From a virus: a stretch of DNA of 64,000 nt. Shown piece after piece: positions 21,206-63,934 of the stretch. Positions within the stretch are counted from its first letter, which is position 1; each line of letters starts with the position of its first letter. A program made the position numbers and the translations under genes. The stretch lies in IMG/VR virus record IMGVR_UViG_3300045988_154953. One strand, written 5' to 3'. The notes beneath the pieces were generated by a model. That model had not been told where the DNA came from and ran no database searches. It was given only the letters and a program-made list of their open reading frames with translations.

Positions 21206-21225
21206 CAAGGGCATACTTAATTATA
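21206..21225 (-). repeat. right copy of the 20-bp perfect inverted repeat
   Basis: caagggcatacttaattata is the reverse complement of 19622-19641. Confidence 0.9.
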
Positions 21226-21829: not shown

Positions 21830-21835
21830 AAAAAT

Positions 21836-21861: not shown

Positions 21862-21871
21862 TATAATTATT

Positions 21872-22852
21872 TTATATAATTTCTGCGTAAATATTTTTCC
21901 AGTAATTAAATCTACCTTTTACAGACTGTGAGCTACGTGTACCGCCTTTAGAGTAGATTTCCTTGTATGCTGTATTATCCTTATATGTATCTGAAAATTC
22001 TTTAATTGCTGCTACAAGTTTATCAAAATTTTTTCCATCTCTCAAACACTGTACACCGATGTAAAGAATCATTGGAATAGAAGCATATAGGTAAGGTGTC
22101 TTATCCATCTTTTCATCCAATAAATCGAGAACATCTACTATAGCAGTTGCGTCAGATTCATCAATATTACCTGCATACCAAACTACAAACTTGTCAAGTG
22201 TCGGTTTAGAGAAGCTTAACGTTTCTTTATCATCTGTTATACTAAGTAACATAAGCGTTTCTCGTATAAGATCTCTGTTGTTATCGCCCAATAGTTGTTT
22301 TGGACTCAAAATCTTCTTGAAGAATGGATGTTCAGCAAGTGGAAATACAATATCACTAACTACTTTAGGTTCAATAGCTGTACGTTTCTGAGTAGCGGTG
22401 AGTGCTTTACCGTTGTTTTGTCTTCGGTACATCTCTCTGATTTCTTCGTCAGTTGCATTTGTGAATATGTAAAGTGTGATTTCAAAATTTAATATTTTGT
22501 CTTGGAGTACAGGATCCAATTCAGAAAATTTCTTACCAGCTGTATCATACGGAACATTATCTATAAGAACTGGTAGATTGTTATTGGATAATGCAAATCC
22601 ATCCTCTATATATTCTGCAAAAGACGTACTACGTTGTATACCATCAAATATACACCTAATATCATCTAATACAGCAGCTCTTATTGGATCGATTAAGAAA
22701 TCACGAAAGATAGAATCTATCAAAAGACATTTCTGAGGTTTTGTCCATTGATCTTCTTTTCTCTGCAAATAATGATGTAGATTATATTTCTTTTCATCTC
22801 GAATATCTTTAGTAAAATTTGCTAATAGTCGTTTTTCACTTTTACACTCCAT
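21872..22852 (-). CDS. DUF262 (ParB-like/GmrSD N-terminal) domain protein
   Basis: YLQRKEDQWTKPQKCLLIDSIFRDFLIDPI and DGIQRSTS (the DGQQR motif) are present. No DUF1524/HNH domain follows. Confidence 0.7.
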   Translation of the reverse strand: MECKSEKRLLANFTKDIRDEKKYNLHHYLQRKEDQWTKPQKCLLIDSIFRDFLIDPIRAAVLDDIRCIFDGIQRSTSFAEYIEDGFALSNNNLPVLIDNVPYDTAGKKFSELDPVLQDKILNFEITLYIFTNATDEEIREMYRRQNNGKALTATQKRTAIEPKVVSDIVFPLAEHPFFKKILSPKQLLGDNNRDLIRETLMLLSITDDKETLSFSKPTLDKFVVWYAGNIDESDATAIVDVLDLLDEKMDKTPYLYASIPMILYIGVQCLRDGKNFDKLVAAIKEFSDTYKDNTAYKEIYSKGGTRSSQSVKGRFNYWKNIYAEII

Positions 22853-22889
22853 AGATACACCTCCAAAAATTTTAAAATTTTATAAAATA

Positions 22890-22918
22890 TAAATATCATA
22901 AAATTTTTTAAAAGTCAA
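22890..22918 (-). promoter_or_regulatory. candidate promoter of the DUF262 gene
   Basis: On the minus strand: TTGACT, a 17-nt spacer, then TATTTA preceded by TGa. Confidence 0.3.
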
Positions 22919-22943
22919 TGATCGATTTTACATTTTTTGAGAG

Positions 22944-22985
22944 TAAAAAAATAGGGGAAATAACTGGTTATAGTCATTTCCCCTA
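22944..22985 (-). terminator. intrinsic terminator after the second recombinase gene
   Basis: The stem is taggggaaat / atttccccta, followed on the minus strand by a T-run. Confidence 0.65.
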
Positions 22986-23075
22986 TATGTAATATTCGGT
23001 TTTATAAGTATGAGAACACTAAGCTGAATTAAATAAGTACCTCGTCAAATTTATTGTTTTAAGGAATAATGTACG

Positions 23076-24083
23076 TTAAATGCCAAACATTGAATTTATT
23101 GTATCTTCCGAATGATCTTTTAAATATCCTTGTGTAGTACTTGGATCTGAATGATGTGCAAATATCTGTATCTGCTCTAATGGATATTTTTTAGGATTTC
23201 CATTTTCGTCAAGCAATCTTAAATCAGTTCCTTGCGAAAGACATTCCAATCTACTATGTCGCATTGTATGAGTAAATATATTGCATGGTTCACCACGTAC
23301 TTCTGATAAAATTTTAGATATACTTACGATTCTATCATATAATACATTCGAATTTGAAATAGGCTCTTTGTGATCTCCTGAACCTTTAATCCACAATGAA
23401 TCAATATCATCATCACCACGCCATTCAAGATATTTCTTAATTAATTCTCTTGTATCATCTAAATATACAAGAGGAAATTTTTTCCCACGTTTACCGATAA
23501 CAATATTGGTTTTATTTCCGTCAAGTAACCCATGCTTTTGGATTTGAAATAATTCATTTTTTCGCCCAGCAGAATCAAAACCAATACTCCATAATACGGC
23601 TAGCTGCCATTTTTCTTCAGCAACAAGAATATCTCTAACCTTAACAAATTCATCATATGTAAAAAAGAAATCATCTTCATCATCTTTAACACGAGACTTT
23701 GGAATACCTTTTACCTTTTTCGCATAGTTAATTTCATATTCATAATCATCATCATCTTCACAGAACGTAAGAAGACTATTGATTGCACTTTTGAGTCTAT
23801 TTGTTCTGGCAGCAGACATTTCACATTCTTCTGTGAAATATAAACTAAGATTACGAAAATCCTTCTTTTTTAAATCGAGAATACAACGGTTATCTAACTC
23901 TCGAAGCACATAAATCAAGATGATTCTTAGATCGTTACGATAGCCTGATATCGTTCCTTTGCTCTTTTTTCTCTGTTTATACTCTTGAAGGAAATCGTCC
24001 ATTATTCTTTTATTCTCTTTGTTTACCTGTTCCCACAATTCTTCTGTATAAAAATTATGATAGATACGTCCTCTAGTAGCCAT
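23076..24083 (-). CDS. second tyrosine recombinase (XerC/D-like)
   Basis: Catalytic pattern: DSAGRKNE (Arg), HTMRHSR (H-x-x-R), AHHSD and TQGYL (Tyr). Confidence 0.8.
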   Translation of the reverse strand: MATRGRIYHNFYTEELWEQVNKENKRIMDDFLQEYKQRKKSKGTISGYRNDLRIILIYVLRELDNRCILDLKKKDFRNLSLYFTEECEMSAARTNRLKSAINSLLTFCEDDDDYEYEINYAKKVKGIPKSRVKDDEDDFFFTYDEFVKVRDILVAEEKWQLAVLWSIGFDSAGRKNELFQIQKHGLLDGNKTNIVIGKRGKKFPLVYLDDTRELIKKYLEWRGDDDIDSLWIKGSGDHKEPISNSNVLYDRIVSISKILSEVRGEPCNIFTHTMRHSRLECLSQGTDLRLLDENGNPKKYPLEQIQIFAHHSDPSTTQGYLKDHSEDTINSMFGI

Positions 24084-28933: not shown

Positions 28934-30070
28934 TTATGTACCAAATGCATACCATGTATAACCAGAAGAAACAGTAGTACTTCCTTTAAATAATGCATTT
29001 TTTAACTCAGTTGCAGTATATGTTACTGTCCCTCCATTTGTACTAAATGTTCCAGCACTTGAAGAAGGATTTGAAAGATAACTAGATGTACTAATACCAG
29101 ATCCTCTAGCTTTTTCACCGTCCCATATTAAAACATTCGTACCATTAGACCCTGTATTAAAAGAATCTTTTATAATGATTACTTTTTCTACACTTGTAAG
29201 ACCAGTATCAAAACTTACTGGATTAGTTGTCCCAGTTCCTGTTATTTGTCCTGTAGTATATCTTGTAGATTGTACAATACCTGTACCAGTTACTTTAATG
29301 CCTGCGGCAGAAGTAAATGTTTTGCCAGCAGCTACATCAGCAGTTGTTGCATCACCAAGATTGGTCAGAGGTGTTTTTAATGTTTGCCAACTTCCGATGC
29401 GACAAAGAACATCTTCCGTTCGTTTAAAGTTAAATTTAATAACATCAGCACCATCATTTGTTATTGTTGCATTTGATAAAATGTCACTATAATTACTTTT
29501 GACTTCTTTTACTGTACCAGTTATTTTTTTGCCATTTACATAGCTTGTTTTACCTTCAGCTATATCGCTAGATGTTGCTGTTGCATCAGAAGTATCAACA
29601 CCTGACCCAGATCCACTTCCGACATATGTACCAGTTACACCAAATATAGAAGTTCCATTTTTAATATTTTCGGCTATTAAATTTGAGTCACCTTTGATTG
29701 TTTGAGTTCCGGTAAGATATGTTCCAGATGCGATAGTTTGAGAAAATGTAGAAGGAGTAATAGTTGTGGTAGATTTTGTTGTAAGTTGTTTTGTACTATT
29801 TTTCGTACCAGATGTAACGTAGCCAGCTGATTGAGTGGAAGATGCTGTGATTAATCCAGAATTAGAAATAGAAATGGATGGAGTTGCTTGAGTAACAGTG
29901 TTAATTGCGTTAACAGTAACACTAGACAAGCCGTCATAATTATTATCTGCTTTTATGGTTTGTATACTTGTTGATGGAGTAACAGTTTTATCTTGTAATG
30001 ATATATCACTTAGTAATACTTTTGTGCCACCTTTCGTACAAACTTTATTTTCACCTAAGTAAACTGCCAT
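28934..30070 (-). CDS. tail fibre or receptor-binding protein
   Basis: The ATG at 30070 overlaps the upstream stop codon (TAATG), 8 nt after GAGGTGG. The protein is Thr/Ser/Gly-rich. Confidence 0.65.
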   Translation of the reverse strand: MAVYLGENKVCTKGGTKVLLSDISLQDKTVTPSTSIQTIKADNNYDGLSSVTVNAINTVTQATPSISISNSGLITASSTQSAGYVTSGTKNSTKQLTTKSTTTITPSTFSQTIASGTYLTGTQTIKGDSNLIAENIKNGTSIFGVTGTYVGSGSGSGVDTSDATATSSDIAEGKTSYVNGKKITGTVKEVKSNYSDILSNATITNDGADVIKFNFKRTEDVLCRIGSWQTLKTPLTNLGDATTADVAAGKTFTSAAGIKVTGTGIVQSTRYTTGQITGTGTTNPVSFDTGLTSVEKVIIIKDSFNTGSNGTNVLIWDGEKARGSGISTSSYLSNPSSSAGTFSTNGGTVTYTATELKNALFKGSTTVSSGYTWYAFGT

Positions 30071-31575
30071 TAATTCCACCTCACAATCTTTACCCCTGTA
30101 CTAGGCATTGTAATTTTACCTGTTGTATCATTACCTTTTGTATACGTAATATCTTGTCCATTTACAGATAAATTTTTAATATATGTAGAAGAAATTGTTT
30201 GATTTTTATCATCTTTACTTGCTTTCCCGGCAAGAATATTACTAGTAGATATTGATCCTAATTCATAACCATTCCAAGATGCTAACCAAGAAGTTGATGT
30301 TTGAGCAGCTTTAGAATATGTAATAGAAATGTCTTTATTGTTATTTGAATCCTTAACTTTTATAGCTCTATCAGAAAGACTTGCACTTTGAACGAAACCA
30401 GCATCAGATCCAGCAACGATATTCGTATAATCTTGAGAGTGAATAGCAGTACCAGCAGCTGCAATTGTTGCATAACATTCTGTAGACGTTTTTGCGTCAG
30501 ATGTCGTTGTATTATTTGCTTCTGATGAATTAACTAGAACTATTTTATTTCTCCCTATATTCGCACGTTTTCCCTCTAAAGCTCTAACGCTAAAGCCTGC
30601 GTATGTACCGTCGGATTTATAGAAAATATCTGCATATGTTGCACCGTTAACGTTATATAAACCCACTTGTATAGAATCCGTAGCTAATCCTTTTCTGATC
30701 AACCATTCTGCATTTGCGGTAGATACATTAGATCCACTATTTGTTCTAATTGAAACTCTAATTAATCCAAAACCACCACCAACATAATCTTGTGTTACAT
30801 AAAATAGAGCGGTATTATCTTCAAAATTATTTGTAATTACATCTGTTTTAGCAATCCTATGATAAGGATAGTTGTTGGTATTGTTGACACTTGCTGTACA
30901 ATTATAAATATAACTATTAACTGTAATGTCTTTACTTCCATCAAAAGAATAAGATCCCGTTAAATCGCCGCTATTTGAAATAGTTCTGGCTGTAGCTAAT
31001 TTTGTTGTGGTTGCTGCTTTTCCGTTATAATCTGAAGCTGTTAAACCTAAAACACTACTTATTTTATTTTTTATATAATCCCATAATGCTGTCATTGAAC
31101 GTCTGTGATAAGTTGTAGTTGTAGTTCCACCACCAGCATATTGAGATATATAATAATCGTTATCAGTTGGAGTAGCACTAGCTGTATCTAAACTATTGAT
31201 AAAGTAATTAGCACTATCTTTAGCATTTGTATGTCCTGTACCACCATTGAAAATTGGAAGAGTACCAGTTATACCAGGTGTGATATTAGCAGAACCATCA
31301 AATGAAGCAGTAGATGTAGAACTTAAATTTGTTTGTATTGTCCGTGCTGTAGCTAATGTGGTAGCAGTGGCTGAATTGCCAGTGCAGCTAGAAGCATTAT
31401 TCGCATTGTTGTAATACAATTTACTCCATTTTGTTGATCCATCACCAATTTTAAAAGCTCGTTTGTCGCTGCTAATGGCAATTTCTCCAAGTAACAGTAC
31501 TGGATCAACTGATTTCCAATTGGCTTCGGTATCAGTTTTTTGTTTAATTTGTACATTTAAAACATTATTCGCCAT
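30070..31575 (-). CDS. tail fibre protein with an Mtd_N-like N-terminus
   Basis: LNVQIKQKTDTEANWKSVDPVLLLGEIAISSDKRAFKIGDGSTKW matches the R.DT.ANW...NP.L..GE.....D....KiGDG pattern. Confidence 0.7.
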   Translation of the reverse strand: MANNVLNVQIKQKTDTEANWKSVDPVLLLGEIAISSDKRAFKIGDGSTKWSKLYYNNANNASSCTGNSATATTLATARTIQTNLSSTSTASFDGSANITPGITGTLPIFNGGTGHTNAKDSANYFINSLDTASATPTDNDYYISQYAGGGTTTTTYHRRSMTALWDYIKNKISSVLGLTASDYNGKAATTTKLATARTISNSGDLTGSYSFDGSKDITVNSYIYNCTASVNNTNNYPYHRIAKTDVITNNFEDNTALFYVTQDYVGGGFGLIRVSIRTNSGSNVSTANAEWLIRKGLATDSIQVGLYNVNGATYADIFYKSDGTYAGFSVRALEGKRANIGRNKIVLVNSSEANNTTTSDAKTSTECYATIAAAGTAIHSQDYTNIVAGSDAGFVQSASLSDRAIKVKDSNNNKDISITYSKAAQTSTSWLASWNGYELGSISTSNILAGKASKDDKNQTISSTYIKNLSVNGQDITYTKGNDTTGKITMPSTGVKIVRWN

Positions 31576-51175: not shown

Positions 51176-54100
51176 TTATGTAATACTTACTATGATTCCA
51201 TTTATTATTTTTAACATCTTATCTCCAATTTGATAATCACCTGATAATCCAGTTACAGTTGTACCATCTGTATTATTCAAAGATAAAGTACCGGTTATTG
51301 ATGTATTTGATAAAGTTTTATTTTCTAATATAGTTGATATCTTTGATGATTCGACTGTATCAATCAAATTATTATTTGTTCCTGTTATCTTTGAAGCATC
51401 AATATTTCCATTTATCTTTATAGCATCTATAGATTCGATTTGATCAGACTTAATTTTCCCATTAATATTTTCAGCATTTACACTTCCAATGTTGAAATTA
51501 TCAGGATCCGAAATCTGACTAACAGTAATAGAATCTATTTGATCAGATTTAATTTTCCCATCCATGGTATCAATATTCTGAGCTTTAACGTGAAGATTCT
51601 TAGCTGTAACTCCAACATCCTTTATAGCATCCTCAATAGCAGATGTACGTAAAACTAGACTATCTTTGCCATCATATGTAAATCCTCCACCAGCAAAACT
51701 AAAACTACCATTAGCAAGATCAATGTATGTTCCTTTTTCTTCTCCAGATTTATTACTATAATTATGAGAATAAATTTCCCCACCAACAATTGTTGAACCA
51801 CTTACATGACCAGCTGTAACAAATTCAGCTGTGTTTCCATAACCTGTTTTTTCACCCCAAGATTCAGATTCTTTATCATAAACCATATAGTTGTGATTAC
51901 CAATCATTTGCTTTACAGATTTCCAGTTGTTATCCGTAAATGCAATAGCGTTATGAACTAGTTTAAGTTGATCGTCACTGTATGTGCCTGTTATATCATC
52001 GTAGGCTCTACACAATAAACCATTCTTACCATAAGTAATTTCTTCATTTTTGCCATTTTTAATCTGAATAAGACCACTGTCTAAACCAGATTGTTTCCAA
52101 GATTCTATGTCGTTTTGAGCATTACTACCTTTATCAGCTTGTTTACTTACATATCCGTAGCTTGATGCCATTGATTTTGCTGATTGAATAATTTGTTGAG
52201 CATCAAACGCTACGCTTTTAATTTTTGAAACATTTGAAAATTCAACACTTAATGAATCTAGTGAATTAAAATCAAGACTATAACTGATCAATCGTAATTT
52301 AAATAATTGATTATCAACTTTTAATCTGATCCAATTGCCTAATTTAAAATATTTAATTATTGGTTTAAATTCTGGAAGAATTAATAGATTGTAAAGAGTA
52401 GAAGAGAGTGTCCATTGCTTTTCAGAAGATTTAATTAATTCATTTTTAGCAGTTTCTATAAATTCATTTGCATGTTTTAACATATCGGCATTATCAAGGC
52501 CATCTGATATATAATTCTCATTACTATACTCATCTTCGCGCCTATATGCACAAAATGTAACATATAAATCTCCAAGAAAGTCTTTGAAATTTAACTCTTT
52601 TTGTATTCTTGTAACATTATCCTGAGCTTCATTCAATTCTTTTTGAGCTTGATCTATTTCTGTTTGAATTGAATTTATGGCTTCTTGACAGGCTTGTAAT
52701 TTGTTATAATAAGGAATATACATTGATTCGTATAAATCAGCACTTTCTGTTGCTTGATCCATTTGAACAAGAACATCTAATGCACCTTGAATTGCATCAT
52801 AAAAAGATGTTAACCTATTTTTACAGTATAATTTTAAAGCATCTTTAAACTTATCTAAATCTTCTATGTTTAACACATCGAATATAGAACCTTTTTCATC
52901 TTCATTTTCATCCATTTGAGCAACCTGTTTTAAAACTTTTTGCTTTATGAATTCTTCATAATTATCATTTATTTGAATTGTTAATTTTTCCGTTGCTTTT
53001 ACATCTTCTGAATCAGAATAATTCGTAATTGTGAAACTACCAGTCCATGTACCGTATATAAATCCATCATCGTGCTTTCCATTATATGAAAACGCAGCAT
53101 CATTATTTGTTTCTATTTTTACGTATCCAGATTTTATATATACTTTTGCATAATTTTTTAAGGCGCTATTAACTGTTTCTACAGATGTCGATTCTGTTAA
53201 CTCAGTCAAAGCTGTTGGGCTTAAATTGTCAACTGTCAATTTAGCGGCTTCTGTTTCGGCAGTAATAGGAGATTCTTCAATTGTTGGCATTTTTTCAGAT
53301 GTAAGATTTAATATCTTATCTGTTTGATCGTATATTGTACTCACATATTTTTGATATTCATCTGTTTTGGAATTGTATAATTTGTCATAATCATTTAACT
53401 TTTGTACCAATTCACTAGACATATCAGATTTTTGTTCATCGGAAAAATAATATATATAATCAGAACCATTTTGATTTAACATTCGAATGGTAGCTGTCAT
53501 ATAATCATCACCAGCGACAAGTTTAAAACTATTTTTTATGCTGCTTACATCTGCTTCTAAAGTTATGGAATCAGTTAAGTTCGTTTTGTCAACTAAAATA
53601 GTAGTATCTTCTCCAAAATATTTAAGATTTGTACTTTCACATTTTGGACATTTGTCGTAGTAATCACCACGGTATCCACAATCATTACACGTTGTATATA
53701 AATCATAAACAGATATACTTCTATCAGCTGAATTAAAATCAAATAAACAATTATATTGTTCTGAACATTCCCCTGTCAAGAAGTCATATATGGAGGTTCC
53801 ATCAATGGTAAACTGACGAATGAATGATAAATTCTTTAACGATTCATCAACATATTTAATTGTGTAATGAGGTGCCTTTTCTAAAATTCTATGTAAAAGA
53901 GATGCTTCTGGATGATCTTCTCTATAAAAAGTAGTAGGATAATTTGCATCATAATCATCTCTAGCGATATCATTTTCGGTATTTATTTCTGTATTATACA
54001 ACATGGTTTGGCCCAATTCAGCTTCACACAACGATGTTCCTGTAATATTTTTAACAGTATCAGATGAATCTTCCGTTCTTACGTTTATTTCAAAATATTC

Positions 54101-54373
54101 ATTTAATTCTTTTACCCAAATGAGTTTTAGATCAATAATTTGATTCCATAAAGATTCTTTTACGTTTTTGTATTTATTATCAATCATTTTAAATTTACTT
54201 ATTGTAAAAGAAATTTCATCTGCACTATTTAGATTTTTATTAAGGTTTACATTTTGTATTCCGGTAATTTGACCAAGATGTCTTAAATCTCTTGAGGAAA
54301 GAACAATTGTATAATCTTGAATCATATTATGTATAACTTTTAATCCGTTTATATCATTGATCAGATTTTCCAT
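51176..54373 (-). CDS. tail-associated lysin-like or baseplate hub protein (Tal, prophage-tail family)
   Basis: 1065 aa, directly after the Dit-like gene with an ATGA overlap. The N-terminal region resembles the phage minor structural protein / prophage endopeptidase tail family. Confidence 0.65.
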   Translation of the reverse strand: MENLINDINGLKVIHNMIQDYTIVLSSRDLRHLGQITGIQNVNLNKNLNSADEISFTISKFKMIDNKYKNVKESLWNQIIDLKLIWVKELNEYFEINVRTEDSSDTVKNITGTSLCEAELGQTMLYNTEINTENDIARDDYDANYPTTFYREDHPEASLLHRILEKAPHYTIKYVDESLKNLSFIRQFTIDGTSIYDFLTGECSEQYNCLFDFNSADRSISVYDLYTTCNDCGYRGDYYDKCPKCESTNLKYFGEDTTILVDKTNLTDSITLEADVSSIKNSFKLVAGDDYMTATIRMLNQNGSDYIYYFSDEQKSDMSSELVQKLNDYDKLYNSKTDEYQKYVSTIYDQTDKILNLTSEKMPTIEESPITAETEAAKLTVDNLSPTALTELTESTSVETVNSALKNYAKVYIKSGYVKIETNNDAAFSYNGKHDDGFIYGTWTGSFTITNYSDSEDVKATEKLTIQINDNYEEFIKQKVLKQVAQMDENEDEKGSIFDVLNIEDLDKFKDALKLYCKNRLTSFYDAIQGALDVLVQMDQATESADLYESMYIPYYNKLQACQEAINSIQTEIDQAQKELNEAQDNVTRIQKELNFKDFLGDLYVTFCAYRREDEYSNENYISDGLDNADMLKHANEFIETAKNELIKSSEKQWTLSSTLYNLLILPEFKPIIKYFKLGNWIRLKVDNQLFKLRLISYSLDFNSLDSLSVEFSNVSKIKSVAFDAQQIIQSAKSMASSYGYVSKQADKGSNAQNDIESWKQSGLDSGLIQIKNGKNEEITYGKNGLLCRAYDDITGTYSDDQLKLVHNAIAFTDNNWKSVKQMIGNHNYMVYDKESESWGEKTGYGNTAEFVTAGHVSGSTIVGGEIYSHNYSNKSGEEKGTYIDLANGSFSFAGGGFTYDGKDSLVLRTSAIEDAIKDVGVTAKNLHVKAQNIDTMDGKIKSDQIDSITVSQISDPDNFNIGSVNAENINGKIKSDQIESIDAIKINGNIDASKITGTNNNLIDTVESSKISTILENKTLSNTSITGTLSLNNTDGTTVTGLSGDYQIGDKMLKIINGIIVSIT

Positions 54374-56459: not shown

Positions 56460-56951
56460 TTAAATTTTAAATTTAGATAAACTATTATTACCCATCATTG
56501 AACCTAACGTCATCTGCTGTACAACTTTTTCAAATCGCTTATTATTTCTAAGTTCAGTTACAAAATCATCAACGTCATGAACGTTTGGAAGTTCAAGATT
56601 TAATACAATATCATTTTTTACCGTTCCAGAATTCTTTAAATAATTTGTCTGAGGAACCTTTACGAGATCTTTTACAAAAGAATCCATCGCAACAAACGTA
56701 TTTTTCATTTCTTTAATTTTATCAAGAGATAAAATTTCTTCACCAGTTTTTGCTAATACAAATCCATCTTCTCCAGATTGCTTAATAAGACTACCTATTG
56801 TACCGCCTGTTTTAAACCCATGAGATCTCATTTGTGAAACCATCCAAGAATTTTGACTTGCGGAACTCGTATATGTATCTTTTTTACCCATAGCTTTATA
56901 ATACTTAGCACGGGCGGAGAAGGATGAGTCAAAATCAAAGTATTTTAATCT
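56460..56951 (-). CDS. tape measure protein, exon 2 (C-terminal part)
   Basis: It begins RLKYFDFDSSFSARAKYYKAMG.., completing the SIVDxLK...DSSFSxR..Y.G.A.QN motif that starts at the end of exon 1. Confidence 0.7.
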   Translation of the reverse strand, partial: RLKYFDFDSSFSARAKYYKAMGKKDTYTSSASQNSWMVSQMRSHGFKTGGTIGSLIKQSGEDGFVLAKTGEEILSLDKIKEMKNTFVAMDSFVKDLVKVPQTNYLKNSGTVKNDIVLNLELPNVHDVDDFVTELRNNKRFEKVVQQMTLGSMMGNNSLSKFKI

Positions 56952-58260
56952 CAATTATACCCTCGGTTTCCCGATATTTATCTAGGGGTTTAGACTATAC
57001 CATATTTTATTTATTATAAATTTACGAAGCATACTCCCACAAATATCCCTCTAAGTATTTATTTTCTTTTTTACAAGCATAGATTATAGAATCAGAAGAT
57101 CTGTTTATGTATTCTGCAGCAGCTTTCACACTATCAAATTTTTGTATTACATTACCATTTTCATCTAATTGATTAACAGGCTTTACGTTTTTAGGTTGTT
57201 TTATAATACATGGTTCACCTTTATAAGCCCAAACATATCCTAACGCACTTGGTTTTTTACCATTACAACAATGCCAAATTAAAGTTGTTCCTTGTTTTTT
57301 ATTAAAAGCAAATTCTGCATCTCGTATACTTGGATATTCTCTTATAAAGTCTCCAGTTTTACTGTATTGTACTACTGGTTTGAAATGTGTGTTTTTTGAA
57401 ACAGCAAACTCTTCATCAATTAATTTTTCTCCATATGTCAATTTATCTGATTTAAATCTAAAAATATACCCACCAATTGACTTTACACGTTTTCTGCATA
57501 CAGAACTAATCGTCTCATTACTAATTCCTAGTTGTCTTTCTGCTTCCATAGCACTACAATATTCGTTTATAAATTCGCCAGTATTTCTATCATATTGATA
57601 TATTGGGCGAGAATTAGCCAATCCAATTTTTCTTTTAAGTTCATCTGTCATTCGGCCAATTGAATTTCCACCATTTTGTATATTGTACCCAAAATCTTGA
57701 TTGGTAGCGTTATATTTGGCAATTAATTCAATTTCTTTTTCTTCTGCCTCTTCCTTTGATAAATGTTCAAATAATATAATATGTTCAAAATTATCCCATT
57801 CATACTTTTTAATAGCATTTTTAAAATGATTATTATGATTATATTTTGCACCATTATGTCCCCACCTATCACTTGGATTTTCTTTGCTTGTAATACCAAT
57901 GTATACTTTATTATTTATTTTATTTTTATGCATATATACAGAATAACAATATGTATCTTTGGCGTTTTCCACACGTTCACCTTCTTTCTTTTTGTAATTT
58001 TTTGCAATAAAAAGAGCCATTAAAATGACTCATAAATTCATATTCATAATAAATAAAATCACCTATTATAGTCGTTGAACGTCTATCCTGTAAATTAATA
58101 ATTTATAGATATTTCGCTGCGTTTGATTACCCAATCCTTAACGATTTTACCATACCGATTCCGTTACTAATCGCCGCTATGTATGTCGCCATCATAGTTT
58201 GGTTGTTAAGGCTCTAAGGGACTTCCCGCAATTTAAGGTGTTTAATGTGGACAATATTCT
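56952..58260 (-). mobile_element. group I intron in the tape measure gene carrying a GIY-YIG homing endonuclease gene
   Basis: On the minus strand, exon 1 ends ..gtg gaT and the intron ends ..ggtataattG. Joining gives ..NNSIVD|RLKYFDFD.. in frame. Structured segments flank the ORF. Confidence 0.7.
57022..58020 (-). CDS. GIY-YIG homing endonuclease with repeated NUMOD/IENR-type DNA-binding modules
   Basis: YCYSVYMHKNKINNKVYIGITS..RWGHNG is the GIY-YIG motif. There are three repeats of the (I/V).QYd..G.fi.eY.S..eA......s.I..cC pattern. Confidence 0.85.
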   Translation of the reverse strand: MALFIAKNYKKKEGERVENAKDTYCYSVYMHKNKINNKVYIGITSKENPSDRWGHNGAKYNHNNHFKNAIKKYEWDNFEHIILFEHLSKEEAEEKEIELIAKYNATNQDFGYNIQNGGNSIGRMTDELKRKIGLANSRPIYQYDRNTGEFINEYCSAMEAERQLGISNETISSVCRKRVKSIGGYIFRFKSDKLTYGEKLIDEEFAVSKNTHFKPVVQYSKTGDFIREYPSIRDAEFAFNKKQGTTLIWHCCNGKKPSALGYVWAYKGEPCIIKQPKNVKPVNQLDENGNVIQKFDSVKAAAEYINRSSDSIIYACKKENKYLEGYLWEYAS

Positions 58261-61200
58261 ATCCACAATAGAATTATTCTTATCCAGTTCAGACTTCGAT
58301 CCAGTGTATTTCTTTTTAATAAACCAACTTCCCCATTTTGATGAACTAGTAGTTGATTTATTAGTTGATGTATGCTTTTTAGTTGAAGTATTAGTTGATG
58401 TATTCTTTTTAGTTGAAGTATTCGACTTGTTAGTTGAACTATCAGAAATCTTCCCTTTGATAGTTTTCTTCATCGTTACTTGTGGTTTTAAAGGATCATT
58501 TTGCACTTCTTGATTATGTGCTTTATTATTGCTATCACTGACCATATCAGAAATGAATTTTTTAATATCATTCAAAGTATTATTTGTGGTAGTTAACTGA
58601 GAAGAGAGATTATTTTGATAACCAGCAACAACAGAAGCATATTTACCGCCAGGAGACCAGATGGCATTCATTTCTTTTGAAAGAGATATACCTACATCTT
58701 GAGTTTCTTTGGATAATGTATCTTTAATGGTTGAAGCATTCTCATTTGTAGAAGCAATTACATCTTTTACAACAGCATCCAAATTATCTAATTTTTTATT
58801 GAAAAATTCTTCAGTGGAATCCTTTAAATTATCAAGGAGTTTGGATTGATCGGATATATACTGTTCATATTCAGTATCTTTCAGATTATCCTGAGCTTCT
58901 TTTAAGGATTCTTTCAACTGCTGAATAGTTGCTTTTGATTCCTCAGATGTATCAGCGCCATAAGCATTTAGCTGTTTCTGTAATTTAGAAATTTCTTTTG
59001 TCTGATCAGAAATATTCTTCTCATAATCATAGATATCTTTTTGTTCGGAGAGCAGGGACTCTCTCTTCTCAATGATTTTATCCATTACATCTAAGAAAGT
59101 ATCATATCCATCAGATACTAGATCCTTAATAGATTGTTTTTCATCTTCAGCGGATTTAATGTTATCTCTCTGTGCTTCTAACAGTTCTTTTCTACGATCA
59201 AGTAAATCCTGATTATATGGGTCATTTGCTAGATCTTTATCAAGATTCTTTATTTCTTTTGCATATTCATCAGCCTGACGCATATAAGCATCATAATTCA
59301 CAGCATGAAGTCCAAGAGTAGCTTGACCTTGTTCAGTAATCTTACCTGTATCTTCATCATACATCTTACCATTAGACATAAGATCAATTAAGAAATCTGA
59401 TTCAGTTTGAACCTGAGAAAGCATGTCCTGTGTCTTGTCAAATATATCCCATTTTAATTGACGAATAGCATTTTGATATTCAACAGTAGCTGCTTTAGAC
59501 TCTAAGATGGATTCTGATACTTCATTGATTGAAATTGTCATTTCATACCATTCATCGCTATATTTCTTAATTGAACCATTTTTAACTAACTGATCCCTAG
59601 TTGTAATAAGATCTTTATATTCAGAACGAAGTTTTACATAATTGTCCTTTTCTTGTTTGAGTAAATTAGAATAAAGATTTTGACTGACTAAATAACCCTT
59701 GCTTTCAATTAAATCAATAGAAGACTCTAAGAGATTCTTTTCATGTTCAATTAAACTAATCTGATTTTCAAACTCTGTGCTTATATTGTTGAATTTAGTT
59801 TGTGCAAGTTCTTTTAATTTATCTTTCAAATCATCAACAGCATCGATACAATCTAAATATTTTTCATACCATTTCTGATAATTTTCTATGTTCGTTTTTA
59901 CATCTTCATCTTTAATGCTTTGAATATTGATTGTTCCTTCACGAACACGTTTCTTGTACTCTGAAGACAAATTTACAGAATCTGCTTCTTTTTTATATCG
60001 TTCTGCAGATTTTTGTTGAGCAACGATTTCTTTTTGAACTTGAGCAATAGCCTTGTTTGTTGAGTTTTGCTTATTTAATAAACCAACTTGTCGCTCAATA
60101 GCATCTATCAGTTTATTAGTGATACGTTCTTGTCTGCTAAGATATATTTCAATCCAATCTATAATTTCTTTTGAATCATCTGACGAAGATGAGCTAGAAG
60201 AGGACTTTGATGAAGAAGATTTGGAAGAAGATGAAGATTTTGACGATGACTTGCTGGATGAACTTGATTTAGAAGATGATGATTTTGAAGAAGAAGAGGA
60301 TGAATCATCATCATAGAATCTGCCACCGGAGCCACCATAATAGCCTCTCATTAGTGTTGAAAGACCATTTAAAGTACCTTCGGCAAAACCATTTCCAATT
60401 AGTTGACCACGACCACCGTTTGAAGTAACGTAACCAGTTTTTTGGAGTTCATCCATCTGAGTACTATTAAAGATGATATCCCCTTTGCGAAGATTCATTG
60501 TATGAGCGCCACCAGGAATTTCATATAATATACCATCACGAAGTAAACCTTCTGTACCAACTTCATTAACAAGAGCAGTTTCATCATGACGTAAAGATAC
60601 ATTTGTGCCAGTAGCATAGCCATGGAATGTACCATTAGCTTGAACGCCAATGCCAGGAATACCACCAACTGTTTTAATATTGTAAGTTAATGTAGCTGTT
60701 TTATTTGCATTCCAATTAGCTACATCATTTTTTGCTTGGGTTAAGTTTGCACCAACTTGAATCTCTCCTGTTGCCGCATTTATATCGGCAATGATATTAT
60801 CAAGTTGTGCTTTTGCTTTATCATCATTGGCATCAATCGCTAATTGTGGATCAACATTAGCAACAGTTGTTTTTATCGTGTTTAAATCGTTCTCGTCTAT
60901 GGAAGCGTGAGCTGTTATTTTAGCTTGGACAGAAGCAGCCTCTTGTTGAATCTCATCTGTGTTGATATTCAAATCAGCAGTTATATCTGGTGATAAATTC
61001 TTTACATCTGCAAGAGCAATACTTAATTCAGATTCTAATTGAGAAGTATCTGCACCAGGTACAACATTCGCCTGTTCAATTTGGTTAATAATTTCTTGAA
61101 CTCGTTGAATCTTCTGAACCGCATCAGCAACTTCACTATCTAGTTCAGACGAATCTAGTTGCATAATGGCCGGTTCTTCAGCTGCTTGTTTTTCTGCAAG

Positions 61201-63666
61201 TAATGCTTGCATTTTCTTTACGGCTTCTTGAACTTCAGAATCATCCATGTTTAACTTTCCGTGATTATTTTGAGATAACTCATTAAGTTTGGACTGTGCT
61301 TTATCAATGTCTGATTCAATTTCCTCTATTGATCTAGCTACAAGTACATCGCCATCTGCTGTAAATACAAATTTTACATTGTATTCTCCCTCATATTGAC
61401 TCATTGCGGATTTAAGTGCAGATTTCTGATCTTCATCAGTTGTACCTTTGTATTGGTCGATTAATGCTTGAGCACCTTCTATGGCACCAGTATCTTTTGG
61501 TTGTTTTTCTTCAGAATTACGTAAATCATCTATACCTTGTTTAAGGTTGTTTACTTGTTCTGTAAGACTCTTTACTTTTTCTTGTTGAGCTTCATATTCA
61601 GTTCCTTGATTTGGATCCATCGTTGCCAATTTGGCTTTAGCTTGAGCCAATTCAAGTGATTTAGAAGAAAGTTTATCTAATCCTTCTTCCATTGTTCCGA
61701 AATATGAATCTGTAAAACCATAAGACTGTAAATTTTGAAGAAGAACTGATACCATCTCTAATGGCATATGTAATTGCTCTGCCATATACTGCATATCTTT
61801 AAGATTTAAATCAAAACCCTCGCCATCGTCACGAAGTTTCGCAAAAGGAGTACCATCAGGATATTCCAGCCCTTGTAATGTTTTTACAAATTCTTTAGCA
61901 CCAGATGAATCTTCTGTAAAATATTTTCCAAGATAAGCAAGATTTTCATTCCAATCATCTATATCATCCATCCCATTTTCAGAGAATGCGATAGCTGCCT
62001 TTTTAAATTCTTCTGTACCAATTTTACCGGCCTTAGCTAATTCTTTAGCGGAATTCATCATCGCAACATATGAATCATAGTCATCAGAAGTAGAACCACC
62101 TTCTTTAGCTGTATTATAAGCATCAAGATTTGTCCTGGCATTAATATCTATTTCGTTTGATGCAATAGCTTGTGTTTCTAAGATTTTGGCCTTCATTTCA
62201 TCGAAAGTCATATCTCCAACGTTTTCAAGTTTGTATGCTATTTCTAATTGATCTTTAGATAAAGTTTTGAGTTTATCTCCAAAACGCGAATATAATTCTT
62301 TATACTGATCAGACTGAATTATACCGACATCTTTTAATTTACTTACAATATAATCAGCAGATACATCATATTGATTTGCAAGTTTTTGTACCTCATCGGT
62401 ACTTTTTACCTGTTCTTCAGTTAAATCACCATATGCTGTTTTAATCTTTTTTAAATCCAAAAGAATAGAAGAAACGTTATTATCAACATCATTATCAAAA
62501 TTCATCTGCTTCATAGCAGTATTAGTGGATTCGAATAAATTTGAAAAATATCTTTTTGTAGAATCAGATGTTGCAATACTATCAATCTGATCATAATATT
62601 TTTTATAATTATTCAAAGATTCTTGTATCGCATTTTTGTCACCAGAAGTCAATGCCTCCTGGTATTTATCTTGAGCATTTGTTAAATCCTGATAGAATTT
62701 TTTTAGATTAGTATTAGAAGGATCAAGTACTTCCTCATAAAATGTATTAGAATCATAAGCATCTTTGTTGTCACTATAAAAATCTTCGGCTTTAGTAAGT
62801 GTATTCTCTACAGATTTTGCCCACTTGTCATATTTCTCAGCATTTCCTGGATCAGTACGTTTCAAGTCATCAACTTTAGCTTTTAAATTTTCGGCCGCTT
62901 GAGCAGCACCTTCTGCATCGCCTTGAAATTTTAAAGTAGCCACACCATAGTCGTCTATTGTTTTTTCAAATCCAAGATTTTCAGCATATTTTGCAATTTT
63001 TATAGGCATTCCAGAATAATCAAGACTCATATCATAGTTTTCAAATTTATTCTTCATCTGGTCAAATTTTGATACGCCAATATTACCAGTGAAGAAGTCA
63101 GAAACATGATCACCCAAATCTTTTTTATTATATTCGTCTTTTTGTTCTTTGAATTCGTTTGCACCAATTTTTTCAAGTATAGCAGCTTGATCTTCCAATG
63201 AACCGTTAAGTAAATCTACACCTTCGGCTTCCGAGCCATATTTATCAATCAATTCATTCTGAATAGATAAAAGTTCTTGCCTAGCACTTGTAACTTCTTC
63301 AATAGTAGAAGACGAATCAGACATTGTTGCTCTAAGAGATTCTATTTTATCTTTATAAGAATCGAGAGTAGATGCACTAGATTTAATATTGTCGGCCATC
63401 TGAGAAGATGCTTTATTCATATTCTCTTCGTAATTTACTGTTTTCTCAATTCCACTTGCGAGTGCTTCCACACCAGCAGAGATAACAGCAGTAGCGAGTG
63501 CATTCCCAGCCATTGCAAGCCCCTTAAGCGCAACTTGCCCGGCTTTTGCACCAAGAGTCATAGATTTTGCATTTGTAATCAAAGTTTCTAATGCTGTAGC
63601 ATCATTTTTACATTCTTTTACATGCTCTTTTGCCGCAACAGAACATTTCTTCATAGTTTTTGCCAA
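58261..63666 (-). CDS. tape measure protein, exon 1 (the frame remains open upstream to 63915)
   Basis: It encodes about 1800 aa that are alpha-helical and Ala/Glu/Lys-rich. It contains a poly(Ser/Lys) tract. Its position is upstream of Dit and Tal. The first candidate start is TTG at 63666. Confidence 0.8.
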
Positions 63667-63905
63667 GGCTTCACCTGTAGAAACACCTGACTTTATTTGT
63701 CTAGTATATTCTTCGATTTGAGGTATATCACTTTTTTTAAAAGTATCTTTGCCACTAAAAAGAGAATATAACGTACCTTGACCAGAATTTAAATCTAGTT
63801 TAATATTATATATACTTTTATCTCGTACAGTTACTTTCTTTTCAACGGCTTGCTTTTTAGTGCCTTTTAGTACAGATTCTTTTGTATCATTAGATAATCC
63901 AAATA

Positions 63906-63934
63906 TTGTTCCGAATATCGTACTGTGTTATAAT
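63906..63934 (+). promoter_or_regulatory. candidate sigma-70-type promoter facing the window end
   Basis: TTGTTC, a 17-nt spacer, then TGtTATAAT (extended -10). Confidence 0.45.

What the first reader, a model, noticed from the sequence alone, without database searches (positions are those of the whole stretch)
56460..63666. Tape measure gene interrupted by a second group I intron with a GIY-YIG endonuclease gene
The 1824-aa ORF runs ..ELDKNNSIVDR and then into a short out-of-context tail. The 164-aa ORF 1.3 kb downstream begins (M)RLKYFDFDSSFSARAKYYKAMG... Joined after ..gtg gaT and before aga tta aaa, they read SIVDRLKYFDFDSSFSARAKYY..Y.SSASQN. This reconstitutes, as I recall it, a conserved peptidoglycan-binding-like motif (SIVDxLK..DSSFxxR..Y.GTAxQN). 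The 3-nt ambiguity (aga on both sides) resolves uniquely under the group I rule of U at -1 and a terminal G. A GIY-YIG/NUMOD endonuclease gene lies in between. Introns in tail tape measure genes are far less familiar than those in nucleotide-metabolism genes.
Basis: partly seen in the sequence, partly recalled or inferred. Interest (0 to 1): 0.65.

Follow-up and report, generated by a model that had tools for sequence, protein, structure and literature searches.

The report
Group I intron splitting a tape-measure gene
A phage tail-length ("tape measure") gene is interrupted by a 1.3-kb self-splicing group I intron that carries its own homing-endonuclease gene; the call is right, but introns in tape measure genes were first described in 2008, so this is a new example, not a new kind of element.

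Summary
On the minus strand there is an 1824-aa ORF (63666..58192), a GIY-YIG/NUMOD1 endonuclease ORF (58020..57022) and a 164-aa ORF (56954..56460).

The 1309 nt at 58260..56952 have the full group I architecture:
- P1 is UGUGGAU/GUCCACA, with U·G at the 5' splice site.
- The P3/P7 pseudoknot, P4, P5, P5a, P6, P8 and P9 are all present.
- The endonuclease gene sits in the P8 loop.
- The intron ends in G.

Nine related introns, including an ORF-less 327-nt copy at the same codon, support the structure. 99.1% of cells pair, 24 of 52 pairs show changes on both sides, and 0 of 500 shuffles reach this.

Splicing gives ...SIVD|RLKYFDFDSS.... Eight homologues read this stretch without a break. It restores Pfam DUF3597 above threshold and matches PDB 2GQB across the junction.

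Rfam's group I model misses this intron, but it also misses annotated phage introns, so that negative result says nothing.

The "peptidoglycan-binding" label for the motif is not verified; DUF3597 has no known function.

Group I introns in tape measure genes were described in Bacillus cereus-group prophages in 2008. This is therefore a new member of a known kind.

Two side findings: ribozymes with the same guide sequence sit in nrdD and recJ-like genes, and tape measure genes of this phage clade carry introns at three or more sites.

The parts
58261..63666 (-). Tape measure exon 1 (1802 codons if the TTG at 63666 is the start), ending ...NNSIVD. The last 7 nt, UGUGGAU (58267..58261), are the 5' strand of P1.
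   Evidence: ORF list; coordinates; C-terminal part 66% identical to the 2127-aa tape measure ORF of L003; sits upstream of Dit and a minor tail protein.
56952..58260 (-). Group I intron, 1309 nt, from A58260 to the terminal G at 56952.
   Evidence: Hand structure plus MFE fold of the ORF-deleted RNA; covariation over 9 homologues; 90-95% identical to the intron at the same site in L003.
58246..58252 (-). Internal guide sequence GUCCACA (3' strand of P1). It pairs with exon UGUGGAU, with U·G at the splice site. The preceding loop AAUAU pairs 4 of 5 with exon-2 AGAUU (P10).
   Evidence: for coordinates; helix 1 (U·G in 9/9; G-C changes to A-U in L013b together with its shifted site); loop sequences, with P10 pairing read from them by eye.
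58236..58240 (-). P3 5' strand CACCU. It pairs with AGGUG at 58064..58060 and forms a pseudoknot with P7.
   Evidence: helix 2: 5 of 5 pairs change on both sides, 100% paired, six different helix sequences.
58112..58230 (-). P4-P5-P5a domain: P4 UGCGGG (58230..58225) with UC..CGCA, P5 CCC/GGG, P5a CCUUAAC/GUUAAGG, A-rich J4/5 and J5/4.
   Evidence: (P5a: 6 of 7 pairs change on both sides). The motif AAUUGCGGGAA matches the Rfam group I consensus as displayed.
58080..58111 (-). P6 hairpin (UAUC...GAUA).
   Evidence: helix 7: 3 of 4 pairs change on both sides.
58065..58079 (-). J6/7 and the P7 5' strand (UUCAACGACUAUAAU). P7 GACUAUA pairs with UAUAGUC at 56999..56993.
   Evidence: (helix 8, invariant apart from one mismatch in L003).
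58046..58059 (-). P8 5' strand AUUUUAUUUAUUAU. It pairs with AUAAUAAAUAAAAU at 57017..57004. The endonuclease gene lies in the P8 loop.
   Evidence: (helix 9: 6 of 6 pairs change on both sides).
58014..58031 (-). Terminator-like hairpin GAGUCAUUUUAAUGGCUC followed by UUUUUAUUGC, just upstream of the endonuclease ribosome-binding site. It contains the ATG at 58020.
   Evidence: Hairpins with different stem sequences plus a U-run occupy the same place in L003, L009, L144 and L145.
57022..58020 (-). GIY-YIG / NUMOD1 homing-endonuclease ORF (332 aa from the ATG). The likelier start is GTG at 57972 behind GAAGGUGAA (316 aa).
   Evidence: Pfam; PHROGs homing endonuclease; 31-37% identical to the endonucleases in the L003, L009, L145 and L013 introns.
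56952..56999 (-). P7 3' strand, P9 (CCC/GGG), P9b UCGG-GAAA-CCGA and the 3' end ...GGGUAUAAUUG.
   Evidence: 90-95% identical to the 3' ends of the intervening sequences in split DNA polymerase genes of Herelleviridae. The 19-mer occurs in at least 120 IMG/VR contigs.
56460..56951 (-). Tape measure exon 2: 163 codons plus stop, RLKYFDFDSSFSARAKYY...SKFKI.

Best explanation
Window 58260..56952 (minus strand) is a mobile, self-splicing group I intron in the 3' part of a phage tape measure gene.

Inferred mechanism, from the established group I pathway:
1. The guide sequence GUCCACA pairs with the last seven exon-1 bases UGUGGAU. This forms P1 with a U·G wobble at the cleavage site.
2. An exogenous guanosine bound in P7 attacks after U58261.
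3. The freed exon-1 3'-OH then attacks after the terminal G at 56952. The 3' exon is held by a short P10 (AAUAU with AGAUU).
4. The result is an mRNA for a 1965-aa tape measure protein that reads ...NNSIVD-RLKYFDFDSS... through a DUF3597-type domain.

The P8 loop carries a GIY-YIG/NUMOD1 homing endonuclease. This enzyme presumably cuts intron-less tape measure alleles during co-infection and copies the intron in by recombination repair.

Shown here: the anatomy, the covariation, the similarity to introns of split phage genes, intron-less and ORF-less alleles, and domain restoration. Inferred, not shown: actual splicing, endonuclease activity and its target.
For: - **Anatomy.** P1 with U·G, P3/P7 pseudoknot, P4, P5, P5a, P6, P8, P9, P9b and a terminal G. 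Most of these appear unprompted in the MFE fold of the ORF-deleted RNA (coordinates).
- **Covariation.** Nine introns were aligned by fixed offsets from invariant anchors. 99.1% of 468 cells pair and 24 of 52 pairs change on both sides. 0 of 500 shuffles reach any of the five measures, and slid controls give 28-43% pairing. P3 shows six different, always complementary sequences.
- **Same site elsewhere.** The same codon (IVD|RL) is occupied on independent contigs L003, L009 and L145, and L134, L136, L141 and L144 hold 5' parts of such introns. L138 carries a 327-nt ORF-less intron there.
- **Guide sequence tracks the site.** In L013 a related intron sits 15 nt upstream (NVN|ESIVD). Its guide is changed to GUUCAC, which matches GUGAAU.
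- **Continuous homologues.** Eight homologues are uninterrupted across the junction. DNA of two such alleles is in L006 and L008.
- **Domain restored.** The joined peptide passes the Pfam DUF3597 threshold (30.7 vs 29.8 bits); exon 2 alone gives 14.7. The family profile matches PDB 2GQB across the junction, E 1.3e-9.
- **Similarity to other phage introns.** The 3' 55 nt are 90-95% identical to the intervening sequences of split DNA polymerase genes in Herelleviridae. The 5' core is 70-79% identical to sequences in the AR9/PBS1 RNA polymerase beta gene (CDS joined from six pieces) and next to the lysin exon of a Twortvirinae phage.
- **Endonuclease.** GIY-YIG plus NUMOD1, homologous to the endonucleases of the sister introns.
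Against: - There are no RNA data, so splicing is inferred.
- Rfam RF00028 gives no hit on the window even at E<=10, and only 12.5 bits on the ORF-less homologue. The model also fails on the Herelleviridae polymerase introns and on 18 other loci that carry the P9 motif. It is therefore insensitive to this subclass and not evidence of absence.
- Window-specific weaknesses compared with relatives:
  - The exon-1 reading frame runs 22 codons into the intron, through P1, P3, P4 and P5. Relatives have UAG or UAA at intron positions 1-3. Ribosomes could disturb folding.
  - P10 is 4 of 5 with a G·A mismatch, against 5 of 5 in L009, L138 and L145 (loop sequences).
- GAGGG lies 5 nt before the UUG at 56954. 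This looks like a ribosome-binding site plus start codon, so exon 2 could in principle be translated on its own.
- The covariation alignment was curated by hand (variable loops removed), although strands were taken at fixed offsets from anchors.
Confidence: 0.9

Rival explanations
1. The ribozyme is a decayed or inefficient relic. The tape measure function is then supplied by two separately translated polypeptides: the 1824-aa product ending in the 21-residue intron-encoded tail, and a 164-aa product started at UUG 56954 behind the GAGGG in P9.
For: A GAGGG-N5-UUG arrangement precedes exon 2. Exon-1 translation runs 22 codons into the ribozyme core, and P10 is weaker than in relatives. Gene callers in public data annotate the 164-170-aa piece as a separate protein in several relatives.
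Against: Every core helix of the window copy is intact. The GAGGGUAUAAUUG end is a conserved intron 3' terminus. It is also found in the polymerase introns of L001 and L002 and, in variant form, in the nrdD introns, so its resemblance to a ribosome-binding site is incidental. The junction lies inside a single folded domain (DUF3597 / 2GQB) that homologues encode without a break. The ORF-less copy in L138 has no reason to persist except as a splicing intron.
Confidence: 0.06
2. A free-standing GIY-YIG endonuclease gene inserted between two naturally separate genes, or split the gene without any ribozyme, as mobE does in the Aeh1 nrdA gene. The flanking non-coding DNA would have no catalytic role.
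For: Rfam finds no group I intron. Free-standing GIY-YIG genes are common in phages (general knowledge).
Against: The about 230 nt upstream and about 70 nt downstream of the ORF are conserved, and they covary as P1-P9 across nine loci in three different host genes. An ORF-less version exists at the same site. The guide sequence changes together with the insertion site in L013.
Confidence: 0.02
3. Assembly artefact or chimera joining unrelated sequence inside a tape measure gene.
For: None specific. The window has no close match among sequenced phages.
Against: The same arrangement (tape measure exon, intron with GIY-YIG gene, 164-170-aa exon, then NYN, Dit and tail genes) is found on independent contigs from different samples and sources.
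Confidence: 0.01

Closest known systems
Group I introns TMP-IVS1/2/3 in tape measure genes of Bacillus cereus-group prophages (Tourasse & Kolsto 2008, NAR 36:4529, PMC2504315)
   Same: Group I introns interrupt a phage tape measure gene. There are several insertion sites within one gene. Related ribozymes at different sites differ in their P1/guide sequence. Some copies have a degraded endonuclease gene or none. The clade studied here shows the same pattern: three or more sites, a guide sequence adapted in L013, an ORF-less copy in L138 and a decayed endonuclease gene in L013.
   Different: The host phage lineage differs: there was no megablast match to any sequenced phage. The tape measure protein and insertion site differ (inside a C-terminal DUF3597 domain). 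I did not compare the sequences with those introns directly. The published ones are classed IA1/IA2, whereas the present ribozyme has no room for P7.1/P7.2 between P3' and P8.
Introns of split phage genes: Herelleviridae DNA polymerase (SPO1 type), AR9/PBS1 RNA polymerase beta, Twortvirinae lysin
   Same: The 3' 55 nt (P7', P9, P9b, terminal ...UAUAAUUG) are 90-95% identical to the polymerase intervening sequences. The 5' core (P3-P7) is 70-79% identical to the AR9/PBS1 and Twortvirinae sequences. All carry or neighbour homing-endonuclease genes.
   Different: The host gene is a structural tail gene. The polymerase introns have a td-like 5' half (ACGGG.../...CCCGU) and hold an HNH gene in a different loop, so the window intron shares only modules with them. 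Splicing of these reference introns is taken from the literature and from record annotation; it was not tested here.
Phage nrdD introns with the same guide sequence (IMG/VR loci L140, L142) and a recJ-like gene intron (L139)
   Same: Same ribozyme family: the window core is 75-80% identical to L140, about as close as to the same-site tape measure intron in L009. The guide GUCCACA and the exon heptamer UGUGGAU| are identical, and so is the P9b module.
   Different: Different host genes and 3' exons (nrdD ...RRTCG|Y..., recJ-like ...ILIIVD|SDCDGY...). Those loci are unannotated metagenomic contigs, and their host genes were identified only from translated motifs.
I-TevI / I-BmoI-type GIY-YIG intron endonucleases
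   Same: N-terminal GIY-YIG catalytic domain followed by NUMOD DNA-binding modules, encoded in a peripheral loop of a phage group I intron.
   Different: No detectable sequence match to any solved structure. Target site and cleavage are unknown.

Membership tests
Group I self-splicing intron | P1 helix formed by an internal guide sequence and the 5' exon, with a U·G wobble at the 5' splice site | tested here: met
   UGUGGAU/GUCCACA. U·G is present in 9 of 9 homologues, and a compensatory G-C to A-U change accompanies the shifted site in L013.
Group I self-splicing intron | Conserved core: P3-P7 pseudoknot, P4-P6 domain, P8, in the canonical order | tested here: met
   All helices are present in the canonical order. 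99.1% of cells pair, 24 of 52 pairs change on both sides, 0 of 500 shuffles reach this, and slid controls give 28-43%. The MFE fold recovers P1, P4-P9.
Group I self-splicing intron | Terminal G at the 3' splice site, and P10 pairing with the 3' exon | tested here: met
   The intron ends ...AAUUG at 56952. P10 AAUAU/AGAUU is 4 of 5 in the window and 5 of 5 (AAUCU/AGAUU) in L009, L138 and L145 (sequences).
Group I self-splicing intron | Match to the curated covariance model (Rfam RF00028) at the gathering score | tested here: not met
   No hit on the window at E<=10. The ORF-less homologue scores 12.5 bits against a threshold of 50. The control shows the model is blind to this subclass: no hit on the Herelleviridae polymerase introns or on 18 loci with the P9 motif. 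This is a detection tool, not a defining property.
Group I self-splicing intron | Guanosine-dependent self-splicing that yields ligated exons | not testable with these tools
   Needs RT-PCR, RNA-seq or in vitro splicing.
Group I self-splicing intron | Precise removal restores an uninterrupted, conserved reading frame | tested here: met
   SIVD|RLK is continuous in eight homologues. DUF3597 scores 30.7 bits (threshold 29.8) only when the exons are joined. 2GQB matches across the junction.
GIY-YIG homing endonuclease | GIY-YIG catalytic domain plus DNA-binding modules, encoded within the intron | tested here: met
   Pfam GIY-YIG 34.9 bits, NUMOD1 83.3 bits, I-HmuI NUMOD-like 34.4 bits. PHROGs homing endonuclease, E 4e-26. 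Located in the P8 loop.
GIY-YIG homing endonuclease | Cleavage of the intron-less allele near the insertion site | not testable with these tools
   Candidate intron-less alleles exist (L006, L008), but no activity can be measured here.
Phage tape measure protein | Very long, largely helical protein encoded directly upstream of the distal tail (Dit) and tail tip genes; TMP-type domain | tested here: inconclusive
   Size (1965 aa) and position upstream of Dit (phrog_33) and a minor tail protein (phrog_6211) fit. The corresponding gene region of relative L009 has PhageMin_Tail PF10145. The window protein itself has no significant TMP-family hit in Pfam or PHROGs.
Subgroup IA1/IA2 of group I introns | Extra helices P7.1/P7.2 between P3' and P8 (from memory of Michel & Westhof 1990) | tested here: not met
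   P3' (58064..58060) abuts P8 (58059..). In the ORF-less L138 the whole P3'-P8-P7' segment is about 40 nt. The subgroup is left unassigned.

The most novel reading that the evidence does not exclude
One ribozyme lineage with an unchanged guide sequence (GUCCACA) sits in three unrelated phage genes: nrdD, a recJ-like gene and the tape measure gene. Each time it follows the exon heptamer UGUGGAU. The window's tape measure intron is about as close to an nrdD intron (75-80%) as to tape measure introns at the same codon in other phages (70-79%). This would be a natural record of ectopic intron transposition guided by guide-sequence/exon pairing (reverse splicing or illegitimate homing). It would also make the tape measure gene of this clade, with at least three insertion sites, a repeatedly colonised hotspot. 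The conserved terminator-like hairpin ahead of the endonuclease gene could be a shared device that limits endonuclease expression.
Probability: 0.35. Interest if true: 0.55.

Novelty: new member of a known kind. Interest (0 to 1): 0.3.

Why it matters
**Annotation.** The two ORFs should be joined into one 1965-aa tape measure protein. The 164-170-aa "hypothetical proteins" beginning MRLK in public databases are exon fragments whose "start codon" is the last three bases of the intron.

**Methods.** The standard Rfam group I model misses an abundant phage intron subclass. The P9 19-mer alone occurs in at least 120 IMG/VR contigs, and none of the 18 loci tested was detected. Intron surveys of phage metagenomes that rely on this model will undercount.

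**Biology.** This adds a well-supported case of introns in a virion structural gene. The set of sister introns (same site, shifted site, ORF-less copy, decayed endonuclease gene, same guide sequence in other genes) could be used to study how group I introns move to new sites. None of this overturns current understanding.

Tried and rejected
- **Rfam scans.** I ran the whole window at gathering and at E<=1, the region at E<=10, related loci, and the ORF-less homologue. There was no usable group I hit for this intron type. The only sub-threshold hit (30 bits, E 9e-4) was on a different, upstream intron of the L013 tape measure gene. I rejected Rfam as a test because it also misses the introns of annotated split phage genes.
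- **Sequenced phages.** tblastn of the joined C-terminus against sequenced phages found nothing. Megablast of 24 kb of the tail region also found nothing. The phage has no sequenced close relative.
- **Host.** A search for relatives in bacterial genomes by protein failed twice. The guide-sequence DNA pattern gave only chance hits plus one Bacilli MAG. The host remains unknown.
- **Endonuclease structure.** A PDB sequence search found no hit.
- **Alignment.** MAFFT alignments of whole ORF-deleted cores (A1, A2) put the variable P5 and P6 extensions out of register. I replaced them for pair counting with an anchor-defined 172-column digest.
- **Considered and rejected.** Intein (the insert has stop codons in frame). 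Group II intron (no reverse transcriptase or domain V-like element seen). Programmed frameshift (the exons are 1.3 kb apart).
- **Promoter-like site.** I considered that the sigma-70-like site at 58094..58065 drives the endonuclease gene. It is not supported, because its -10 hexamer is simply the conserved GACUAUAAU of P7.

Full report
**1.

On the minus strand, one search lists three ORFs:
- An 1824-aa ORF at 63666..58192. It ends ...SELDKNNSIVDR, then an unrelated 21-residue tail and a stop.
- A 332-aa ORF at 58020..57022.
- A 164-aa ORF at 56954..56460, starting (TTG)RLKYFDFDSSFSARAKYYKAMG.

Pfam assigns the middle ORF to GIY-YIG, NUMOD1 (three stretches) and I-HmuI NUMOD-like. PHROGs calls it a homing endonuclease.

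The sequence shows ...auu gug gaU | aga aua uug ucc aca... at 58261/58260. It shows ...ggguauaauuG | aga uua aaa... at 56952/56951.

**2. The host gene**

The long ORF has no significant tape measure family hit of its own. Its context does fit:
- It lies directly upstream of an NYN-domain gene, a small gene, a Dit homologue (phrog_33) and a 1065-aa minor tail protein (phrog_6211).
- Its C-terminal 800 residues are 66% identical to the 2127-aa ORF in the same position of contig L003.
- The corresponding gene region of relative L009 carries PhageMin_Tail PF10145.

I accept "tape measure gene" on size, synteny and relatives.

**3. Joining the exons restores a conserved domain**

- The joined peptide (...SIVD-RLKYFDFDSS...) scores 30.7 bits on Pfam DUF3597 (cut-off 29.8), covering profile positions 62-124. 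Exon 2 alone gives 14.7 bits.
- A database search with the joined C-terminus found 18 homologues.
- Eight of them (P0004, P0006, P0007, P0011, P0012, P0016-P0018) read ...SIVDRL(K/A)..(F/I/Y/K)D(S/N)S..(A/R)R..YY... without interruption.
- Five (P0001, P0002, P0005, P0009, P0014) start "MRLK", that is, they are split at the same place.
- A profile of the family matches the structural-genomics protein PDB 2GQB ("conserved hypothetical protein") across the junction, E 1.3e-9.

So the junction lies inside one folded domain.

**4. The intervening sequence is a group I ribozyme**

*Hand annotation, with coordinates:*

| Element | Sequence and position |
|---|---|
| P1 | UGUGGAU (exon, 58267..58261) with GUCCACA (58252..58246); U·G at the cleavage site |
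| P3 | CACCU (58240..58236) with AGGUG (58064..58060) |
| P4 | UGCGGG with UC..CGCA; A-rich J4/5 and J5/4 |
| P5 | CCC/GGG |
| P5a | CCUUAAC/GUUAAGG |
| P6 | UAUC/GAUA |
| J6/7 and P7 | UUCAACGACUAUA with UAUAGUC (56999..56993) |
| P8 | AUUUUAUUUAUUAU/AUAAUAAAUAAAAU; the endonuclease gene is in its loop |
| P9 | CCC/GGG |
| P9b | UCGG-GAAA-CCGA |
| 3' end | terminal G at 56952 |

An MFE fold of the RNA with the P8 loop replaced by GAAA recovers P1, P4, P5, P5a, P6, P7, P8 and P9 without constraints. P3 cannot appear in that fold because it is pseudoknotted with P7. The motifs AAUUGCGGGAA and GUUCAACGACUA are those of the Rfam group I consensus as displayed.

*Comparative test.* I collected sister introns from three sources:
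- Contigs that encode the homologous exon 2.
- An IMG/VR scan for GTGGAT..GTCCACA..AATTGCGGG.
- The P9 19-mer.

Complete introns at the same codon occur in L003 (1289 nt), L009 (1314 nt) and L145 (1820 nt). All three have a GIY-YIG gene in the P8 loop. L138 has an ORF-less 327-nt intron there.

In L013 a related intron sits 15 nt upstream (..NVN|ESIVDRLK..). Its guide sequence is GUUCAC, complementary to the exon GUGAAU at that site. Here the guide sequence changed together with the insertion site.

Introns of the same ribozyme type and the same guide sequence also sit in two other genes. These are nrdD (L140 and L142, after ..RRTCG) and a recJ-like DHH gene (L139, ORF-less..ILIIVD|SDCDGY).

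MAFFT misaligned the variable P5 and P6 extensions. I therefore cut each of the nine introns into fields at fixed offsets from invariant anchors. This gave a gapless 172-column alignment.

| Measure on that alignment | Value |
|---|---|
| Pairs / cells counted | 52 / 468 |
| Cells forming a standard pair | 99.1% |
| Pairs with changes on both sides | 24 |
| Shuffles (of 500) reaching any of the five measures | 0 |
| Pairing after sliding the 3' partners by 1-3 columns | 28-43% |

| Helix | Pairs with changes on both sides |
|---|---|
| P3 | 5 of 5 (six different sequences: CACCU/AGGUG, CACAU/AUGUG, CGCUA/UAGCG, UCCCU/AGGGA, UAGGU/ACCUA, CCGAU/AUCGG) |
| P5a | 6 of 7 |
| P6 | 3 of 4 |
| P8 | 6 of 6 |
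| P9b | 3 of 4 |

P4, P7 and P9 are invariant and therefore uninformative. The caveat is that the alignment was curated by me. Strands were taken by position, though, not chosen for complementarity.

**5. Similarity to introns of other split phage genes**

- The last 55 nt (P7', P9, P9b...UAUAAUUG) are 90-95% identical to the 3' ends of the intervening sequences in split DNA polymerase genes. These are in Aerococcus phage AVP and several SPO1-like Bacillus phages, each with a homing-endonuclease gene between the polymerase pieces.
- The 5' core is 70-79% identical to sequences inside the AR9/PBS1 virion RNA polymerase beta gene. That CDS is annotated as joined from six pieces and has an adjacent HNH gene.
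- The 5' core also matches sequence next to the lysin exon of a Twortvirinae phage, and sequences in Listeria phages, Lak megaphages and others.
- A recent paper mentions a group I intron in the AR9/PBS1 RNA polymerase gene (PMC12350094).

**6. The Rfam negative**

RF00028 gives nothing on the window at gathering or at E<=10. It gives 12.5 bits (threshold 50) on the ORF-less L138 copy. It also gives nothing on the polymerase introns of L001 and L002, and nothing on 18 IMG/VR loci that carry the P9 motif.

**7. Mechanism**

*Shown:* the anatomy, the covariation, and the precise restoration of a conserved frame.

*Inferred from the established group I pathway:*
- Guanosine attacks after U58261.
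- The exons are ligated after G56952, aided by P10.
- The product is a 1965-aa tape measure protein (1802 + 163 residues).
- Homing is driven by the GIY-YIG enzyme.

The endonuclease ORF is intact and 31-37% identical to those of the sister introns. Its likely start is GTG 57972 behind GAAGGUGAA, because the ATG at 58020 lies inside a hairpin.

*Features that might lower splicing efficiency in this copy:*
- The exon-1 frame stays open for 22 codons into the ribozyme. Relatives stop at intron nucleotides 1-3.
- P10 is 4 of 5 here, against 5 of 5 in relatives.

Intron-less alleles in L006 and L008 differ at synonymous positions (GTAGAT|CGC, GTAGAC|CGC). These changes would weaken P1.

**8. Comparison with what is known, and novelty**

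Group I introns in tape measure genes were described in 2008 for B. cereus-group prophages. That study reported three sites (IVS1-3), related ribozymes with guide sequences adapted to different sites, and copies lacking a complete endonuclease gene (PMC2504315). Introns in other structural genes are also on record: terminase in Moonbeam and LL-H (PMC4299906), and capsid and minor tail genes in Cluster J mycobacteriophages (PMC3706429).

The present case is therefore a new member of a known kind, in an unsequenced phage lineage.

The clade repeats the 2008 pattern, with at least three insertion sites:
- *Upstream site.* L006, L008 and L013 carry a different group I intron further upstream. It has the motif AAUUGCUGG...CAGCAGCCAAG and an Rfam sub-threshold hit in L013.
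- *NVN|ES site.* L013 carries a second intron here, with a decayed endonuclease gene.
- *IVD|RL site.* This is the site occupied in the window.

The mildly novel angle is that the same guide sequence and ribozyme family occur in nrdD, recJ-like and tape measure genes after the same heptamer UGUGGAU. In addition, the window core is as close to an nrdD intron (75-80%) as to same-site tape measure introns in other phages (70-79%). This hints at ectopic transposition. My search pattern required that heptamer, however, so the sampling is biased and this remains a hypothesis.

**9. Verdict**

The finding is real and correctly interpreted. It is well supported by computation and lacks only RNA-level proof. 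It is ordinary in kind. Interest 0.3.

Noticed in passing
window 12931-16229 (+), gap 13810-14858: The anaerobic ribonucleotide reductase gene nrdD is split. The ORF at 12931-13809 matches Pfam NRDD positions 1-154, and the ORF at 14859-16229 matches positions 155-562. A 284-aa ORF lies between them (13989-14843) and begins MYGYIYLTTNLINDRKYIGKH, which is GIY-YIG-like. The flanks look like a td-type group I intron (..acaaacggU|uaauuuugg.. and ..gauaguccgcucugcauagaaauaugcagauggG|gugcaagcc). Rfam does not detect it either.
   Followed up: partly
window 58014-58031 (-); also L003, L009, L144, L145 between the P8 5' strand and the endonuclease start: A terminator-like hairpin followed by U5-6 AUUGC sits just upstream of the endonuclease ribosome-binding site in every ORF-containing sister intron. 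The stem sequences differ (GAGUCAU/AUGGCUC, AGAACCAU/AUGGUUCU, AGAACAGU/ACUGUUCU, GAGAACAGC/GCUGUUCU). An intrinsic terminator inside an intron of an essential late gene is odd. It may limit endonuclease expression or act only at the RNA level.
   Followed up: partly
window 63667-63927 (-): The tape measure reading frame stays open for 87 codons upstream of the TTG at 63666, with no ATG, GTG or TTG in it (HSTIFGTIFGLSNDTKESVLKG...). For AT-rich DNA this is unlikely by chance. The true start, or a further upstream exon beyond the window end, is unresolved. The start of the L003 tape measure ORF is similarly unclear.
   Followed up: partly
IMG/VR loci L014-L133; 18 of them tested: The 19-mer TATCGGGAAACCGAGGGTA (P9b/P9 of this intron type) occurs in at least 120 viral contigs. 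It is often followed by an nrdD exon (..YIGTNFWN). None of the 18 loci scanned reached Rfam's group I gathering score, so this is a sizeable blind spot of the standard model for phage introns.
   Followed up: partly
L013 3884-4638 and 6223-7925; L006 about 5498-8000; L008 about 5877-8000: Tape measure genes of relatives carry further interruptions. One is an upstream group I intron of another type (Rfam RF00028 30 bits, E 9e-4 in L013; the same motifs in L006 and L008, with a 505-634-aa ORF showing faint DUF723/DUF4379 hits). In L013 the second intron's endonuclease gene is broken into 303-aa and 98-aa ORFs that lack the GIY-YIG N-terminus. L009 has a further 2-kb interruption after a PhageMin_Tail piece (813-2796) in which I found no group I motifs.
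   Followed up: partly
window 58065-58094 (-): An 11-of-12 match to a sigma-70 promoter (TTTACA-18-TATAAT) lies inside the ribozyme. The -10 hexamer is the conserved GACUAUAAU of P7/J7-3, so this is probably coincidental.
   Followed up: no
window 9826-11556 (+): A 576-aa ORF with Cas12f1-like TNB and OrfB_IS605 domains (a TnpB-type transposon-associated nuclease) lies among the metabolic genes.
   Followed up: no
window 533-5037 (+), 11900-19382 (+), 19670-24083: The gene content is unusual for a phage region. It includes NAMPT/NAPRTase, a phosphoribosyltransferase, a Macro domain, NAD synthase, guanylate kinase, nucleoside deoxyribosyltransferase, nrdD plus its activase, and dUTPase. These are followed by a tyrosine integrase (19670-20857), a GmrSD_N-domain protein (21872-22852) and a weak second integrase-like ORF. 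A tail-region ORF (30070-31575) has an Mtd_N domain (major tropism determinant), which hints at a diversity-generating retroelement target.
   Followed up: no
window 53680 (-), inside the 1065-aa minor tail protein ORF 51176-54373: Residues 225-250 of the tail protein match a PHROG annotated as anaerobic ribonucleotide reductase large subunit (E 7e-5). The DNA there reads ..tgtaatgattgtggat|accgt.. (CNDCGY), which is the same UGUGGAU heptamer recognised by the intron's guide sequence. It is not occupied by an intron.
   Followed up: no
public protein clusters P0001, P0002, P0005, P0009, P0014: Database 'proteins' of 164-169 aa that begin MRLK are exon-2 fragments. Their apparent TTG start is the last three bases (UUG) of the intron, so this is a systematic annotation artefact.
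   Followed up: yes
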